Below, one piece after another: positions 1 through 5,159 of a stretch of 5,159 nt of DNA. This DNA is from a virus (Duplodnaviria; Heunggongvirae; Uroviricota; Caudoviricetes). Every line of letters starts with the position of its first letter. Position 1 is the first letter of the stretch. The position numbers and the translations under genes are program-made. A model generated the notes under the pieces. It was not told where the DNA came from and did no database searches. It saw nothing but the letters and a program-made list of their open reading frames with translations. The DNA is taken from positions 1 to 5,159 of IMG/VR virus record IMGVR_UViG_2698536403_000005; one strand, 5' to 3'.

Positions 1-363
1 GTGGATGGTAAACCTGTCGTCCCGGGCATGAAGTTGTCGAAGGAAAAATGCGACCAGGTTAACGCCATTGAACGTGATAAGGCGCTGGCATGGGTGGAGA
101 AAAACATCAGAGTGCCACTGACCGAACCCCAGAAAGCGGGGATTGCGTCATTCTGTCCGTACAACATTGGTCCCGGTAAGTGTTTCCCGTCTACGTTTTA
201 CAGACGAATTAATGCAGGTGATCGAAAAGGTGCCTGCGAAGCGATTCGCTGGTGGATTAAGGACGGTGGCAGAGACTGCCGTATTCGTTCAAACAACTGT
301 TACGGTCAGGTATCCCGTCGTGACCAGGAGAGCGCGCTGGCGTGCTGGGGAATTGACAGATAA
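1..363 (+). CDS. R: Phage endolysin, lysozyme type (P21 R / P22 gp19-like); C-terminal 120 codons only, N-terminus lies upstream of the window
   Basis: Open frame from window edge to TAA at 361-363. Translation (…FCPYNIGPGKCFPSTFYRRINAGDRKGACEAIRWWIKDGG…CWG) follows the conserved pattern of lambdoid lysozyme-type endolysins as I recall them (…SF.YN.G.G.F..ST…RIN.GD.KGAC…R.W…GG…C.WG). Sits directly upstream of Rz/Rz1, the canonical lysis cassette order. The GTG at position 1 is a window artefact, not the real start. Confidence 0.85.
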   Translation: MDGKPVVPGMKLSKEKCDQVNAIERDKALAWVEKNIRVPLTEPQKAGIASFCPYNIGPGKCFPSTFYRRINAGDRKGACEAIRWWIKDGGRDCRIRSNNCYGQVSRRDQESALACWGIDR

Positions 364-452
364 GCAGAATATTTTGCTGAAAAATGCGGTTTGCTCACAC
401 GGGCGGATAACACGAAATCCTGCGAACTGGCAAAAACTAAGTGAATAAAAGT

Positions 453-490
453 AAAACCCCGTTTGTTGGCCGCAAGCGGGGTTTTGTGTT
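453..490 (+). terminator. Stable hairpin followed by a T-rich tract (putative intrinsic terminator or RNA structure) between endolysin and spanin genes
   Basis: AAAACCCCG (453-461) pairs with CGGGGTTTT (477-485); the stem can extend inward (463-465 with 473-475), followed by TTTTGTGTTT. Seen directly in the sequence; function is inferred. Confidence 0.35.
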
Positions 491-557
491 TCCTGACTCC
501 GGAAAAGTCAAAGGAGAAAGTGTGTTTGATTTTAGCAAACTGATTCGGGAGATTCGA

Positions 558-659
558 ATGATGGCTGAAAAATTATCCACCTGGAAGTTCATCCTTATCT
601 GGCTGGTGTTTGTGATTATGGCTTCCGGTTATTTCATTGGTCAGATACGCTGGTGGTGA
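558..659 (+). CDS. Small hydrophobic peptide (33 aa, single predicted transmembrane helix), unknown function
   Basis: ATG at 558 preceded by GGGAGA (547-552) with a 5-nt spacer; translation MMAEKLSTWKFILIWLVFVIMASGYFIGQIRWW has an ~18-residue hydrophobic core. Stop TGA 657-659 lies 1 nt before the Rz ATG at 661, consistent with translational coupling. The longer 441 start in the ORF track would span the hairpin, so the 558 start is preferred. Confidence 0.35.
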   Translation: MMAEKLSTWKFILIWLVFVIMASGYFIGQIRWW

Positions 660-660
660 A

Positions 661-1128
661 ATGAACCGCGTACTGTGCGTGGTCATCATTGCCCTGCTGG
701 TGGCCTGTGGTGCGCTTAGTCTGGGGCTGAATCATTACCGTGATAACGCCATAACCTACAAAGAGCAGCGCGATAAAAAAGTCAGTGAGCTGGAGCTGGC
801 AAATGCAACCATTACTGATATGCAGCAGCGCCAGCGTGATGTTGCTGCACTTGATGCCAGATACTCGAGGGAATTAGCCGATGCGAGAGCTGAAAATGAA
901 ACTCTGCGTGCTGATGTTGCCGCTGGTCGTAAGCGCCTGCGGATCAACGCCACCTGCTCCGGTACCGTGCGTGAAGCCACCGGCACCTCCGGAATGGATA
1001 ATGCAACCGGCCCCCGACTGGCAGACACCGCTGAACGGGATTATTTCACCCTCAGAGAGCGGTTGATGACAATGCAGAAGCAACTGGAAGGGGCGCAGGA
1101 CTATATCCGCACTCAGTGTATTAACTAG
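661..1128 (+). CDS. Rz: Rz i-spanin (inner-membrane spanin subunit)
   Basis: Translation MNRVLCVVIIALLVACGALSLGLNHYRDNAITYKEQRDK…RLADTAERDYFTLRERLMTMQKQLEGAQDYIRTQC is collinear with lambda Rz as I recall it (…NHYRDNAITYKAQRDK…PRLADTAERDYFTLRERLITMQKQLEG…). N-terminal TM segment followed by a coiled-coil-like periplasmic part. The ORF track's 637 start is a TTG; the ATG at 661 is preferred. Confidence 0.9.
   Translation: MNRVLCVVIIALLVACGALSLGLNHYRDNAITYKEQRDKKVSELELANATITDMQQRQRDVAALDARYSRELADARAENETLRADVAAGRKRLRINATCSGTVREATGTSGMDNATGPRLADTAERDYFTLRERLMTMQKQLEGAQDYIRTQCIN
881..1066 (+). CDS. Rz1: Rz1 o-spanin (outer-membrane lipoprotein) embedded in the +1 frame of Rz
   Basis: Translation MRELKMKLCVLMLPLVVSACGSTPPAPVPCVKPPAPPEWIMQPAPDWQTPLNGIISPSESG matches lambda Rz1 (…CVKPPPPPAWIMQPPPDWQTPLNGIISPSERG). 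Lipobox LVVSAC with Cys at ~20, proline-rich, entirely nested inside Rz — the hallmark embedded spanin architecture. Confidence 0.85.
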   Translation: MRELKMKLCVLMLPLVVSACGSTPPAPVPCVKPPAPPEWIMQPAPDWQTPLNGIISPSESG

Positions 1129-1151
1129 TATTTTTGTTATCCGGAGAATGC

Positions 1152-1376
1152 ATGAAGAAATTACTGGTAACCGTAAAGCCTTTTCAGGGAACAATTCCGT
1201 TCCGTATTTTGCAGCGTGGTCGTGTTCTTGTTGAAGGTTCGTTCAGTGGTAAATGTACGCAATTACACTCCCGGACCTTTCAGGTGAATGCCACGAATGA
1301 AGAGCTAACCGTGGAGTGTACGATGAATGCCGCTAAATGCCGCATGGTATCCGCTGCATTACAGCCAGTGTGTTGA
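1152..1376 (+). CDS. Hypothetical small protein (74 aa), unknown function
   Basis: ATG at 1152 preceded by GGAGA (1143-1147); ORF ends at 1376. Lies immediately after Rz/Rz1 in the position where lambdoid phages carry accessory genes. No family recognised; four Cys residues. The ORF track start at 1134 is a TTG. Confidence 0.35.
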   Translation: MKKLLVTVKPFQGTIPFRILQRGRVLVEGSFSGKCTQLHSRTFQVNATNEELTVECTMNAAKCRMVSAALQPVC

Positions 1377-1656
1377 GCGACCTTATTATCCATGCGCGGT
1401 ATTGTCGCCGTATTCCTGCATTAACAGAGACCGCAGCCCGACAGGGAGACTCCTCTGCGAGAGTGTGCGGGATAATCAAAAACGATACACACCGGGGTTT
1501 ACCGCGTTAACGGAGCGCGGCGTTGTCCCCTCATGGTCGCTGGTCCGGTGCGATGGTGGAAGAAACCGGACGATGTGTTACCTCGCAAGCTCTGTTATGT
1601 CATGTGTCTGATTTGTGATTTAAGTCGGATAATTGTCGTTGCCATTAAGCAGAGGA

Positions 1657-1700
1657 TTGATGACCGACAGGGTGGCATTGTTAGAATAAGACTTATTCTT
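1657..1700 (+). promoter_or_regulatory. Candidate sigma70 promoter with extended -10 (TGtTAGAAT, 1679-1687) and TTGATG -35-like hexamer (1657-1662), overlapping the palindrome GAATAAGaCTTATTC (1684-1698)
   Basis: Motifs read directly from the sequence; spacing of -35 to -10 is ~19 nt, which is suboptimal. Sits 25-30 nt upstream of the TonB-like gene start at 1714. Prediction only. Confidence 0.25.
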
Positions 1701-1713
1701 ATCTGTGCCGGGA

Positions 1714-2046
1714 ATGAAAATGAAAAGAAATCTTCCGTTAATTATTTTGTTGTCTTCTCTGGTTATGGGCTGTACGCAACATAAAACAGATATGCCCCGA
1801 CAGTTGGTTAAGGCATTACCACAATATCCGGCCTATGCAGCGGCAAATTATATAAAGGGACGGGTTGATGTGAAGTTTGATATTGGTGCTGATGGTACTG
1901 TCACCCGAATTGAGTTTATCCGTTCAGAGCCGCACCATCTGTTTGATGAGCAGGTTGTAAAGGCGATGGCAAAATGGCGATTTGAGAAGGACAGGCCGCG
2001 TAAAGGCGTGAAGAAAACGTTTATCTTTAGTCCTTCTGCACCCTGA
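1714..2046 (+). CDS. Lipoprotein consisting essentially of a TonB C-terminal domain (TonB_C-like)
   Basis: N-terminus MKMKRNLPLIILLSSLVMGC has a signal peptide plus lipobox (Cys followed by Thr, no Asp at +2). The rest, PQYPAYAAANYIKGRVDVKFDIGADGTVTRIEFIRSEPHHLFDEQVVKAMAKWRFEKDRP, aligns closely with the E. coli TonB C-terminal domain as I recall it ([60 protein letters not shown]). No proline-rich spacer and no N-terminal ExbBD-interacting TM anchor. Start could be 1714 or 1720; stop TGA 2044-2046. Confidence 0.8.
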   Translation: MKMKRNLPLIILLSSLVMGCTQHKTDMPRQLVKALPQYPAYAAANYIKGRVDVKFDIGADGTVTRIEFIRSEPHHLFDEQVVKAMAKWRFEKDRPRKGVKKTFIFSPSAP

Positions 2047-2177
2047 TTATTTCATCAGAAATTAATTATCACTCTGTTGTTATTCTGTACATTCCGGCTG
2101 GGTAAGTCTTGTTCCGCCGGGTATGAAGATGAAATATTGTTGGAGGACAGTGGGTGCTTGCTCCTGTAACCGAACGT

Positions 2178-2378
2178 TCATTTCTCGTTATTTGTCATGC
2201 TGGCCGGGCGCAGATGCGTTGCATCTGTTGACAGCCTTCTTCTGCAGGCTTCAATAACCCACGCTGAAAAGTTTCCTGAACCTTTCAGATCAAGAGCGAT
2301 GTTAATTTGTTCAATCATCTGGTTTGGAAATCGGATGTTGCGGGTTGTTGTTCTGCGGGTTCTGTTCTTTGATGACAT
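2178..2378 (-). CDS. Small putative DNA-binding protein (ribbon-helix-helix / Arc-MetJ-like fold suspected), 66 aa
   Basis: Minus-strand ATG (complement of 2376-2378) preceded by GGGGA at appropriate spacing. Translation MSSKNRTRRTTTRNIRFPNQMIEQINIALDLKGSGNFSAWVIEACRRRL… has a basic N-terminal tail, then a beta-strand-like IRFP segment and two helices in the pattern of RHH proteins. Family assignment is from pattern only. Confidence 0.5.
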   Translation of the reverse strand: MSSKNRTRRTTTRNIRFPNQMIEQINIALDLKGSGNFSAWVIEACRRRLSTDATHLRPASMTNNEK

Positions 2379-2539
2379 AATGTTTCCCCATATTCAGTGT
2401 TGCTGATTTGTATTATCTGAAGTTGCTTTTACGTTAATTTGACGCAGATCAATTAATACGATACCTGCGTCATAATTGATTATTTCTCGTGGTTTGATGG
2501 CGTACACACATGTTGTGATAAACCTTATATAGATGATAA

Positions 2540-2601
2540 TCATTATCATTTCGTGGGTCCTTTCCGGCGATCCGACCGGTTACGGGGCGGCGACCTCGCG
2601 G
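2540..2601 (+). other. cos: cos site core: cosQ-proximal region and cosN; 12-nt cohesive-end sequence GGGCGGCGACCT at 2585-2596
   Basis: The stretch ~2385-2630 is near-identical to the lambda right-end/left-end junction as I recall it from lambda and cosmid cos fragments (…GGTCCTTTCCGGTGATCCGACAGGTTACG|GGGCGGCGACCTCGCGGGTTTTCGCTATTTATGAAAATTTT…). Here it reads …gggtcctttccggcgatccgaccggttacg|gggcggcgacctcgcgggttttcgctatttatgaaaattttt…. Location immediately upstream of Nu1 is canonical. Confidence 0.75.
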
Positions 2602-2635
2602 GTTTTCGCTATTTATGAAAATTTTTAGGGAAAAA

Positions 2636-2750
2636 TCAGATCCGTTCTTCTTCTTTTTAACTGATTGATTATCAATAGAATTTTAAAAATATAAAAGGAT
2701 CTGACAAAGGCTGTTTTTGTTAGAAAACGCCATTTTCAGATCCTTTCTGG
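2636..2750 (+). repeat. cosB: three R-element repeats (R3 2636-2650 tcagatccgttcttc; R2 inverted 2694-2704 aaaggatctga; R1 2736-2750 tcagatcctttctgg) with an IHF-consensus site (taactgattgatt, 2658-2670) between R3 and R2
   Basis: Three copies of TCAGATCC(G/T)TTCT, two direct and one inverted, with R3-R1 spacing of 100 bp. This mirrors the lambda cosB R3-I1-R2-R1 layout, but the repeat sequence differs from lambda's CGTTTCC(G/T)TTCT. The IHF-like site matches YAANNNNTTGATW. Confidence 0.6.
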
Positions 2751-2765
2751 TTCCCGGGGGAGTGT

Positions 2766-2855
2766 ATGAACGTCAATAAGAAAAAACTGGCCGATATTTT
2801 TGGCGTTGATGTCAGGACCATCACCGCCTGGCAGAGTCAGGGGTTCTGCTGCTGA
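2766..2855 (+). pseudogene. nu1: Terminase small subunit (Nu1) remnant: first ~26 codons intact, then out-of-frame junction and TGA stop
   Basis: ATG 2766; [26 protein letters not shown] matches lambda Nu1 N-terminus MEVNKKQLADIFGASIRTIQNWQEQG (the DNA-binding winged-HTH start); then FCC-stop at 2853-2855. Lambda Nu1 is ~181 aa, so ~155 codons are missing. Confidence 0.8.
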
Positions 2856-4449
2856 AGATTTTATGAAATCTCATGTGGAACCCACGATCAGGGATGTGCC
2901 GGTTTTACTCGATCTTGCACCGTGGTTTGGGCGTAAACATCGTGATAATACCCTCACGCTGAAACGTTTTTCATCGGGCGTGGGCTTCTGGTGCCTGGGC
3001 GGGGCTGCCGCTAAAAACTACCGTGAAAAATCCGTGGACGTGGTCTGCTATGACGAACTTTCCTCGTTCGAACCGGATGTCGAAAAAGAGGGTTCGCCAA
3101 CCCTGCTTGGGGATAAACGTATTGAGGGCTCTGTATGGCCCAAATCCATTCGCGGCTCGACGCCTAAAATCAAAGGCACCTGCCAGATCGAAAAAGCGGC
3201 CAACGAGTCGGCGCATTTCATGCGTTTTTATGTGCCCTGCCCACACTGTGGGGAGGAGCAGTATCTGAAATTTGGCGATGAATCCACGCCTTTTGGCCTT
3301 AAATGGGAGAAGGACAGCCCCGAAAGCGTTTTCTACCTCTGTGAACATCATGGCTGCGTGATCCATCAGTCTGAGCTTGACCAGAGCAACGGGCGGTGGA
3401 TCTGTGAAAACACGGGGATGTGGACCCGTGACGGTCTGACGTTTTTCAGCGCCGCGGATAATGAAATTCCGCCGCCGCGCTCCATCACGTTCCATATCTG
3501 GACGGCGTACAGTCCGTTCACCACCTGGGTACAGATAGTCTATGACTGGCTGGATGCACTGAAAGATCCCAACGGCCTGAAAACCTTTGTGAACACCACG
3601 CTGGGCGAGACCTGGGAAGAGGCCGTGGGCGAAAAACTCGATCACCAGGTACTGATGGATAAGGTCGTGCATTACACGGCGGCGGTGCCAGCCCGGGTGG
3701 TTTATCTGACGGCGGGCATTGACTCGCAGCGAAACCGTTTTGAGATGTATGTCTGGGGATGGGCACCGGGAGAGGAAGCTTTTCTGGTGGATAAAATCAT
3801 CATTATGGGCCGTCCCGATGAGGAAGAGACGCTGTTACGTGTGGATGCGGCGATCAACAAAAAATACTGCCATGCAGACGGAACCGAAATGACCATTTCC
3901 CGTGTCTGCTGGGACACCGGGGGGATCGATGGTGAAATTGTCTATCAGAGGTCAAAAAAACACGGTGTTTTCCGGGTGCTGCCGGTAAAAGGCGCATCTG
4001 TCTATGGCAAGCCGGTGATCACCATGCCGAAAACCCGCAATCAGCGGGGCGTGTATCTGTGTGAAGTGGGGACGGACACCGCAAAAGAAATTCTCTATGC
4101 CCGTATGAAAGCCGATCCCACGTCTGCGGATGAAGCCACGTCGTATGCCATCCGTTTTCCTGATGATCCGGAGATTTTTTCGCAGACAGAGGCGCAGCAA
4201 CTGGTCGCGGAAGAGCTTGTGGAGAAGTGGGAAAAAGGAAAGATGCGTCTGCTGTGGGATAACAAAAAGCGGCGTAACGAAGCGCTGGACTGCCTGGTGT
4301 ATGCCTACGCGGCATTACGTGTGTCCGTGCAACGCTGGCAGCTTGATCTGGCTGTACTGGCAAAATCCCGGGAAGAAGAGACGACCCGGCCAACCCTTAA
4401 AGAACTGGCAGCGAAGCTGTCCGGAGGAGTGAATGGTTACAGTCGCTGA
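2848..4449 (+). pseudogene. A: Terminase large subunit (gpA) homologue lacking the N-terminal ~105-110 residues
   Basis: From [40 protein letters not shown]… to the end, the translation is collinear with lambda gpA from about residue 105 (DAENFMKTHVEPTIRDIPSLLALAPWYGKKHRDNTLTMKRF…), including CPHCGEEQYLKFGD, HIWTAYSPFTTWVQIV and KKRRNEALDC. The Nu1-interaction region and the N-terminal part of the packaging ATPase are absent. The only upstream in-frame starts are TTG 2800 and ATG 2809 without a Shine-Dalgarno; ATG 2863 lies 8 nt after the Nu1-remnant stop. Confidence 0.8.
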
Positions 4450-4639
4450 ACTACAGGCGCTGCGTCAGGCGCGCCTTGATTTATTAACCGGTAAACGGGT
4501 GGTGTCTGTCCAGAAAGATGGTCGCAGAATTGAATATACGGCGGCTTCTCTGGATGAGCTTAACCGGGCGATCAATGATGCGGAGTCGGTACTGGGGACA
4601 ACCCGACGTCGCCGTCGTCCGCTGGGAGTGAGGTTATGA
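4433..4639 (+). CDS. W: gpW-like head completion protein
   Basis: MVTVAELQALRQARLDLLTGKRVVSVQKDGRRIEYTAASLDELNRAINDAE…TTRRRRRP matches lambda W (…[38 protein letters not shown]…QRRRGP). ATG 4433 preceded by GGAGGA; the start overlaps the end of A and the stop overlaps the B start (ATGA at 4636-4639), as in lambda. Confidence 0.85.
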   Translation: MVTVAELQALRQARLDLLTGKRVVSVQKDGRRIEYTAASLDELNRAINDAESVLGTTRRRRRPLGVRL

Positions 4640-4857
4640 AACGAACGCCTGTCCTGATTGATGTGAACGGCGTTCCGCTTCGTGAGAGTCTCAGCTACAA
4701 CGGGGGCGGCGCAGGATTTGGCGGGCAAATGGCGGAGTGGTTGCCACCGGCGCAGAGTGCCGATGCGGCCCTGCTATGCGCGGGTTTTCTTTTGCGCGCT
4801 CGGGCGCGAGATGGGGGCAGCAAGTCTTTCGGTACCACAACAGCAGGTACAGCTTGA
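4636..4857 (+). pseudogene. B: Portal protein (gpB) remnant: ~47 N-terminal codons homologous to portal, then frameshifted junk to stop
   Basis: MKRTPVLIDVNGVPLRESLSYNGGGAGFGGQMAEWLPPAQSADAALL matches lambda B N-terminus (…SLREYAGYHGGGSGFGGQLRSWNPPSESVDAALL…); after ~4773 the frame no longer resembles portal and stops at 4857. Lambda portal is ~533 aa. Confidence 0.75.
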
Positions 4858-5158
4858 TGCTCCCGGAATGCTGGCTGAAACGGACGAGTACATGGCCGGA
4901 GGTAAACGACCGGCCCGTGTTTACCGGGTGGTGAACGGTATTGCGGTACTGCCGGTGAGCGGCACGCTGGTGCACCGGCTGGGGGGGATGCGGCCATTTT
5001 CCGGAATGACTGGCTATGACGGCATTGTCGCCTGTCTTCAGCAGGCAATGGCAGATAGCCAGGTGCGGGGCATACTGCTGGACATTGACAGTCCGGGCGG
5101 GCAGGCCGCCGGCGCGTTTGACTGCGCTGACATGATTTACCGCCTCCGTCAGCAGAAG
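4775..5158 (+). pseudogene. C: Head protease/scaffold gpC homologue (peptidase S49-like) lacking first ~25 codons; runs off the window end
   Basis: In the frame starting at 4775: YARVFFCAL…RVYRVVNGIAVLPVSGTLVHRLGGMRPFSGMTGYDGIVACLQQAMADSQVRGILLDIDSPGGQAAGAFDCADMIYRLRQQK, collinear with lambda C from residue ~26 (AYARVFFCALAGQ…SYQVMNGIAVLPVSGTLVSRTRALQPYSGMTGYNGIIARLQQAASDPMVDGILLDMDTPGGMVAGAFDCADIIARVRD). This frame is not in the supplied ORF track, which appears to omit ORFs with no stop inside the window. Confidence 0.75.
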
Positions 5159-5159
5159 C

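What the first reader, a model, noticed from the sequence alone, without database searches (positions are those of the whole stretch)
4765..4780. Second out-of-frame internal deletion fusing portal B (codon ~47) to head protease C (codon ~25), removing almost the entire portal gene
In one frame the translation matches the lambda portal N-terminus up to …SADAALL (ending ~4773). From ~4775, in a different frame, it matches gpC starting at YARVFFCAL. Relative to lambda, about 1.5 kb is missing, covering roughly 485 portal codons and the first ~25 C codons. The junction sits at gccctg|ctatgcgcggg, where B-like and C-like sequence abut, possibly with 1-2 nt of microhomology. Two independent deletions within about 2 kb, both hitting essential packaging genes, suggest the prophage is under selection against, or freed from selection for, virion production while keeping flanking functions.
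Basis: partly seen in the sequence, partly recalled or inferred. Interest (0 to 1): 0.6.

Follow-up and report, generated by a model that had tools for sequence, protein, structure and literature searches.

The report
Portal-gene deletion in decaying prophage
This is a real 1,509-base deletion that removes nearly all of the portal gene from a lambda-like (phage 21-type) prophage in a rare E. coli clone, and it is one of several deletion scars in a dead prophage, so it is ordinary.

Summary
Window 4636-4773 is 100% identical at protein level to residues 1-47 of the phage 21 portal. From 4776 onward the sequence is the head protease/scaffold gene (lambda C, phage 21 gene 5), resuming at Tyr23 (lambda Tyr26). 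Four intact relatives show exactly 1,509 bp missing, with a 2-nt junction microhomology (CT, 4774-4775).

The window is a whole 5,159-bp contig of an E. coli draft assembly. The same junction occurs in at least four assemblies and one IMG/VR prophage call. It is absent from 5,426 complete E. coli genomes, 50,697 phage records, the GTDB species representatives and the metagenome collection.

Longer contigs show a lambda-like prophage integrated at ompW. It also carries the Nu1-A deletion (765 bp) and a 15,327-bp deletion from D into the tail fibre gene. That larger deletion removes the major capsid gene and all tail genes.

This is routine decay of a defective prophage by short-homology illegitimate recombination. 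The "freed from selection" reading fits. "Selection against virion production" has no support. Interest is low.

The parts
2585..2596 (+). cosN cohesive-end sequence GGGCGGCGACCT, still intact
   Evidence: Window 2585-2634 aligns to phage 21 positions 1-51. Those positions are annotated as the cos nicking site.
2766..2855 (+). Nu1' remnant of the small terminase subunit: 26 native codons plus 3 foreign codons and a stop
   Evidence: Pfam Phage_Nu1 matches profile positions 1-27, E=1.4e-11. Alignment to L003.
2844..2845 (.). Junction of deletion 1 (765 bp, Nu1 codon 27 to A codon 109), with TT microhomology
   Evidence: The same junction is present in L004, L005 and L011.
2863..4449 (+). A' large terminase ORF lacking residues 1-114, counted from the first in-frame ATG. 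The first 72 positions of the ATPase-domain profile are missing.
   Evidence: Pfam GpA_ATPase matches profile positions 73-247 of 247, and GpA_nuclease matches in full. 99.6% DNA identity to the intact gene in L003.
4433..4639 (+). W head-tail joining gene, intact
   Evidence: No differences from L003 W. Pfam gpW.
4636..4857 (+). B' portal remnant: portal codons 1-47, then 26 out-of-frame codons read from C DNA, then TGA. The start overlaps the W stop (ATGA).
   Evidence: Residues 1-47 are 100% identical to phage 21 gp4. Matches phrog_21 portal. Exact protein found on 7 contigs, named 'capsid protein of prophage [Escherichia coli]'.
4774..4775 (.). Junction of deletion 2 (the finding): 1,509 bp lost. 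CT is shared by both parents. The last portal-only base is 4773 and the first C-only base is 4776.
   Evidence: against three E. coli prophages and phage 21.
4763..5159 (+). C' head protease/scaffold (S49 peptidase) ORF. It opens at an ATG supplied by portal DNA (MRPC + YARVFF...), lacks native residues 1-22, and runs off the contig end.
   Evidence: Called as a 483-aa Peptidase_S49 product in L004 and L006. Aligned to phage 21 gp5 and lambda C. Full ORF is open in L004.

Best explanation
The junction is the scar of a spontaneous, RecA-independent illegitimate recombination event. Replication slippage or microhomology-mediated end joining at a 2-nt (CT) homology, inside a 6-of-8 imperfect match, removed 1,509 bp from a phage 21-type lambdoid prophage integrated at ompW in one E. 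coli clone. The deletion took out portal codons 48-530 and the start of the head protease gene. It is one of at least three such deletions (Nu1-A, B-C, D-tail fibre) in an element that can no longer build capsids or tails, so it is neutral decay of a defective prophage. Shown here: the deletion, its exact ends, its presence in independent assemblies, the other deletions, and intact counterparts at the same chromosomal site. Inferred: the molecular mechanism of joining, the neutrality, and the order of events. Predicted consequences: no portal protein and hence no procapsid nucleation or DNA packaging; a 73-aa junk peptide translated after W; and possibly a C protein short of 22 residues made from a new ATG with a weak ribosome-binding site. 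Nu3 is untouched.
For: Exact breakpoints against four intact relatives. Protein identities. Both junctions occur together in contigs of separate assemblies and in one IMG/VR prophage call. The source is E. coli. A counterpart prophage with its integrase and a full head and tail gene set lies between ompW and the ompW remnant beside yciE-trp in strain GZ04-0086. Lambda-like prophages at ompW are described in PMC8112680. The third deletion of 15,327 bp also has 2-nt microhomology (TT). By my own calculation, a random junction has about a 0.16 chance of 2 or more nt of homology, so three of three is about 0.004. That fits short-homology joining. Near-identity to intact relatives (7 mismatches in 1,938 nt) shows the event is recent.
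Against: No reads were examined, so the junction rests on assemblies only. No intermediate carrying just one of the deletions was found, so independence and order of the events are inferred. All three deletion lengths are multiples of 3 (1 in 27 by chance), which neutral decay does not predict, although none yields an in-frame fusion of the two parent genes. The true parent sequence is unknown, so the microhomology length is judged from relatives that are 95-99.6% identical.
Confidence: 0.9

Rival explanations
1. Assembly artefact: short-read assemblers joined portal and C sequence from different prophage copies, and the real genome has an intact portal here.
For: The window is a short, whole contig (5,159 bp) that ends inside prophage repeats. 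Its left 2.2 kb differs from the other contigs that share the junction. E. coli genomes carry several similar head modules (median 4 matching places per genome).
Against: The identical junction occurs in contigs up to 122 kb from assemblies with different accession series (CY.. and JHRU) and in an IMG isolate genome. A 2-nt overlap cannot mislead a k-mer assembler. The gene-level context continues coherently on both sides.
Confidence: 0.02
2. Native arrangement: a functional phage or satellite family in which a short B-like ORF followed by C is the normal gene order.
For: The ORFs for A', W and C' are all open, and cos is intact.
Against: None of 50,697 phage records contains the junction. The only IMG/VR hit is the same chromosomal remnant. 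The flanks are 97-99.6% identical to full-length genes, which is the signature of a recent deletion. The element has no major capsid gene, no portal and no tail genes, so it fits neither a phage nor a capsid-forming satellite.
Confidence: 0.02
3. Adaptive loss or domestication: the deletions were selected, either to stop virion production or because the truncated products (A' nuclease domain, C'/Nu3, portal N-terminal peptide) benefit the host, for example by poisoning assembly of superinfecting lambdoid phages.
For: Three deletions hit morphogenesis genes while long ORFs stay open. All lengths are multiples of 3. From my own recollection (the paper could not be retrieved), Bobay et al. 2014 PNAS reported purifying selection on structural genes of defective prophages.
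Against: Lysis genes are retained, so portal loss does not protect an induced cell. Too few substitutions exist to detect selection, and those in A' are mostly non-synonymous. The allele is confined to about 7 contigs among roughly 15 billion proteins and occurs in none of 5,426 complete genomes, so it is not spreading. None of the fusions is in frame.
Confidence: 0.06

Closest known systems
Escherichia phage 21 head-gene cluster (genes 1, 2, 3, 4, 5; records M81255 and OL657228)
   Same: Same gene order: cos, Nu1/1, A/2, W/3, portal/4, protease-scaffold/5. DNA identity is 95-97%, and portal residues 1-47 are identical.
   Different: Phage 21 has the full 530-codon portal and the full gene 5. 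The window lacks 1,509 bp between them and 765 bp between genes 1 and 2.
Lambda-like prophages integrated at ompW (PPompW; PMC8112680), for example the apparently complete copy (integrase through tail fibre genes) in E. coli GZ04-0086
   Same: Same chromosomal site next to yciE-yciF-yciG-trpA. The right end (tail fibre C-terminus, tail fibre assembly gene, methyltransferase, ompW remnant) is 99.9% identical.
   Different: GZ04-0086 keeps all head and tail genes in about 50 kb. The element here has lost Nu1-A, B-C and D-to-stf segments. Its head genes are closer to those of other strains (L003) than to GZ04-0086 (95%), which indicates mosaicism.
Cryptic lambdoid prophages of E. coli, such as DLP12, Rac and Qin of K-12 and the defective prophage pool of O157 (my own knowledge; related papers listed)
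   Same: Loss of morphogenesis genes by internal deletions while lysis genes and morons persist.
   Different: Those elements are old, widespread and partly shown to have host functions. This one is a recent allele of a narrow clone with no evidence of function.

Membership tests
Lambda/phage 21-type portal gene (lambda B, phage 21 gene 4) | N-terminal sequence homologous to the portal and positioned directly after W with an overlapping stop/start | tested here: met
   Residues 1-47 are 100% identical to phage 21 gp4. Matches phrog_21 portal. ATGA overlap with W at 4636-4639.
Lambda/phage 21-type portal gene (lambda B, phage 21 gene 4) | Full-length portal of about 530 residues | tested here: not met
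   Only 47 of 530 codons remain. No Pfam portal domain was detected.
Head protease/scaffold gene C-Nu3 (S49 peptidase) | Homology to lambda C or phage 21 gp5 across the peptidase region | tested here: met
   Alignment from Tyr23 (phage 21) and Tyr26 (lambda) onward. Peptidase_S49 on the 483-aa product in L004.
Head protease/scaffold gene C-Nu3 (S49 peptidase) | Native start codon and ribosome-binding site inside the end of the portal gene | tested here: not met
   C codons 1-22 and the upstream portal 3' end are deleted. A substitute ATG sits at 4763.
Defective (cryptic) lambdoid prophage | Chromosomal integration at a known attachment site with phage genes flanked by host genes | tested here: met
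   L004, L005 and L006 run from phage genes into yciE-yciF-yciG-trpABCD. An intact counterpart lies between ompW and an ompW remnant.
Defective (cryptic) lambdoid prophage | Loss of genes essential for virion formation | tested here: met
   Portal, major capsid, all tail genes, the small terminase subunit and the N-terminus of the large terminase subunit are deleted.
Defective (cryptic) lambdoid prophage | No release of infectious particles on induction | not testable with these tools
   Needs mitomycin C induction and plaque or particle assays.
Phage satellite (cos-type PICI or capsid-forming PICI) | Own integrase/replication module plus packaging-redirection or capsid genes in a compact island | tested here: not met
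   No capsid, portal or redirection gene appears in the 20 kb seen. The gene content is that of a truncated lambdoid late region. The left end of the element was not available.

The most novel reading that the evidence does not exclude
The remnant is retained because its truncated late-gene products act as dominant-negative 'poison subunits' against superinfecting phage 21/lambda-type phages. Candidates are the terminase A' with an intact nuclease domain but no ATPase N-terminus, the 47-residue portal N-terminal peptide, and the C'/Nu3 scaffold. This would make a decaying prophage into an assembly-interference defence.
Probability: 0.03. Interest if true: 0.55.

Novelty: already known. Interest (0 to 1): 0.08.

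Why it matters
It matters little beyond annotation. The 73-aa 'capsid protein of prophage' and the 528-aa 'terminase large subunit' in these assemblies are pseudogene fragments and should be annotated as such. The prophage should be scored as defective. The three exactly mapped junctions add a small, clean example of short-homology (2 nt) deletion as the route of prophage decay in E. coli.

Tried and rejected
1. I searched for the junction elsewhere. It was absent from 5,426 complete E. coli genomes, 50,697 phage records, the GTDB species representatives and the metagenome contigs. IMG/VR gave one hit, which is the same remnant.

2. I looked for intermediates carrying only deletion 1 or only the D-stf deletion in complete genomes and found none. 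The order of events is therefore unknown.

3. I looked for longer direct or inverted repeats at the deletion ends in an intact relative. Nothing beyond the 6-of-8 imperfect match appeared at the breakpoints. Homologous or site-specific recombination is therefore rejected.

4. The synonymous/non-synonymous comparison had too few changes to be informative.

5. The Rfam scan of the window found no RNA family.

6. The promoter/terminator scan gave counts not above shuffled controls. The terminator-like hairpin at 4770-4784 is native to gene C.

7. A literature search for the strain and contig accessions turned up only GZ04-0086, as an NDM-5 isolate. The Bobay 2014 paper was not held.

8. Satellite and tailocin readings are rejected, because capsid, portal and tail genes are all absent.

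Full report
**What is in the window**

The 5,159-bp window is the late region of a lambdoid prophage. In order, it contains:
- the 3' part of a lysozyme gene (1-363);
- Rz (661-1128) with embedded Rz1 (881-1066);
- a 74-aa ORF (1152-1376);
- a TonB_C-domain lipoprotein (1720-2046);
- a DUF3950 gene on the minus strand (2178-2378);
- cosN, GGGCGGCGACCT (2585-2596);
- a 29-codon stump of Nu1 (2766-2855);
- a terminase large-subunit ORF lacking its N-terminus (2863-4449);
- W (4433-4639);
- a 73-codon ORF (4636-4857);
- an open frame homologous to the head protease/scaffold gene C, which runs off the end of the window.

**Checking the observation**

BLASTN against intact relatives splits the window cleanly.
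- Window 2838-4775 aligns to the A-W-portal region of E. coli AREA_499 (L003) at 99.6% identity.
- Window 4768-5159 aligns to its S49 peptidase gene at 98.5% identity, 1,509 bp further along.
- Phage 21 (L001, 95-97%), ARS-C301 (L002) and GZ04-0086 give the same picture.

Reading the three sequences side by side fixes the breakpoint.
- Portal-specific bases end at 4773.
- CT at 4774-4775 is common to both parents.
- C-specific bases start at 4776.
- The apparent 8-nt BLAST overlap is really a 6-of-8 match (GCCCTGCT versus GCCCGCCT).

At the protein level, the 73-aa ORF equals phage 21 gp4 residues 1-47. It then reads 26 codons of C DNA in the wrong frame before reaching a TGA stop. The C frame resumes at YARVFFCAL, which is Tyr23 of phage 21 gp5 and Tyr26 of lambda C. 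The deletion removes portal codons 48-530 and C codons 1-22.

The deleted length is a multiple of 3. The fusion is out of frame only because the portal gene and C occupy different frames (C starts 1,582 nt after the portal start).

The junction also puts the portal's GAT GCG in front of C sequence so that ATG 4763 opens the C frame (MRPC-YARVFF...). Gene callers report this as a 483-aa Peptidase_S49 protein in longer contigs. Whether it is translated is unknown. The sequence upstream of the ATG has only a weak purine stretch, by my reading of the sequence. The Nu3 start lies downstream of the window. The complete C' ORF that contains it in L004 stays open.

**Where the sequence comes from, and is it real?**

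An exact look-up of the 73-aa protein shows that the window is an entire contig, CYBH01000071.1 of GCA_001285345.1. The same protein lies on 7 contigs and is named by NCBI as an E. coli prophage protein.

Contigs L004 (122 kb), L005 (115 kb) and IMG/VR locus L011 carry both junctions. L006 begins inside A and carries the B-C junction. All match window 2224-5159 at 99.9-100% identity. Independent assemblies and a 2-nt overlap make an assembly artefact very unlikely, although I could not inspect reads.

The junction is absent from every other collection searched:
- all 5,426 complete E. coli genomes;
- all 50,697 phage records;
- the GTDB species representatives;
- the metagenome collection.

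It is therefore a private allele of a small clone and not a native phage arrangement.

**Context**

L004-L006 continue from C' into a 143-aa ORF, a tail fibre C-terminal fragment, a tail fibre assembly gene and a methyltransferase. They then reach yciE-yciF-yciG-trpABCD.

The closest complete genome for this right flank is GZ04-0086 (99.9% identity). It has a roughly 50-kb lambdoid prophage with its integrase and a full set of head and tail genes between ompW and an ompW remnant at this site. Lambda-like prophages at ompW are a described class (PMC8112680).

Against that reference, the element has further losses:
- It has lost 15,327 bp from D codon 32 to the middle of the tail fibre gene. This removes the major capsid gene, FI, FII and all tail genes, with a TT microhomology at the junction.
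- It shows a further difference of about 1 kb inside the tail fibre gene.

The Nu1-A deletion in the window is 765 bp with TT microhomology (2844-2845). It leaves 26 Nu1 codons and an A ORF missing residues 1-114. That ORF lacks the first 72 positions of the Pfam ATPase-domain profile.

**Interpretation**

Three clean deletions, each with 2 nt of junction homology, point to short-homology illegitimate recombination. No longer repeats or recombinase-type sites sit at the ends. Replication slippage or RecA-independent end joining would both fit; the choice between them is inference. By my own calculation, a random junction has about a 0.16 chance of 2 or more shared nucleotides, so three of three is about 0.004.

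The element cannot make capsids or tails, so loss of the portal has no further cost. That makes "freed from selection" the economical reading.

"Selection against virion production" is not supported. The lysozyme, Rz and Rz1 genes remain, as does the holin in L004, so an induced cell would still lyse. The long open frames are explained by recency: 7 mismatches in 1,938 nt against L003, and in A' 1 synonymous versus 3 non-synonymous changes. No intermediates with a single deletion were found, so the order and independence of the events stay inferred.

**Rivals**

- An assembly artefact is unlikely for the reasons given above.
- A native phage or satellite arrangement is contradicted by the database absences, by the near-identity of the flanks to full-length genes, and by the missing capsid, portal and tail genes.
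- A domesticated function of the truncated products cannot be excluded but has no positive evidence. The one oddity is that all three deletion lengths are multiples of 3 (1 in 27 by chance), yet none produces an in-frame fusion of the parent genes.

**Verdict**

It is a recent deletion scar in a decaying ompW-integrated, phage 21-type prophage of a rare E. coli clone. Its main practical value is in correcting annotation.

Noticed in passing
window 2844-2845 and 4774-4775; L004 11707-11708: All three clean deletions of this prophage (765, 1,509 and 15,327 bp) are multiples of 3. Each has exactly 2 nt of junction microhomology (TT, CT, TT). None makes an in-frame fusion of the parent genes.
   Followed up: partly
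window 4763-4777: The deletion brings an ATG from portal DNA into the C reading frame, giving MRPC+YARVFF.... Gene callers annotate this as a 483-aa S49 peptidase in the longer contigs.
   Followed up: partly
window 1-2223 versus 2224-5159: The left 2.2 kb (lysis cassette and morons) is only 87-94% like the corresponding part of L004 and L011, or absent from it. From 2224 onward the window is 99.97-100% identical to them. The L005 contig starts exactly at window 2224. This is either a mosaic/repeat boundary or a different assembly path in this strain.
   Followed up: partly
window 1119-1391 (ORF 1152-1376): About 270 bp between Rz and the downstream region is absent from L002 and L003. It encodes a 74-aa ORF that matches only the middle of a 291-position PHROG of unknown function (phrog_2571), so it is probably a gene fragment.
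   Followed up: partly
window 1720-2046: A lipoprotein-like ORF with a TonB C-terminal domain (Pfam TonB_C, E=5e-15) sits between the lysis genes and cos. PHROGs labels its family 'Rz-like spanin'. The position is that of a moron.
   Followed up: partly
window 4770-4784: A terminator-like hairpin plus T-run overlaps the junction. The hairpin with a perfect 5-bp stem is native to gene C in intact relatives, so the right breakpoint lies in its 5' arm. This could be relevant to slippage. Overall terminator-like counts are not above shuffled controls.
   Followed up: no
window 2585-2596: The cohesive-end site cosN is intact next to the truncated terminase genes. In principle the DNA could still be cut by a helper phage's terminase.
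   Followed up: no
window 457-490 and 558-659: A GC-rich hairpin followed by a T-run lies just after the lysozyme gene. A 33-aa hydrophobic ORF (phrog_6632, unknown function) lies immediately upstream of Rz.
   Followed up: no
L004 11688-11708: For the D-to-tail-fibre deletion, some tail fibre alleles align about 19 nt beyond the junction into D-derived sequence (a GCAGCAGCG-like motif on both sides). That junction may have used a longer imperfect homology.
   Followed up: no
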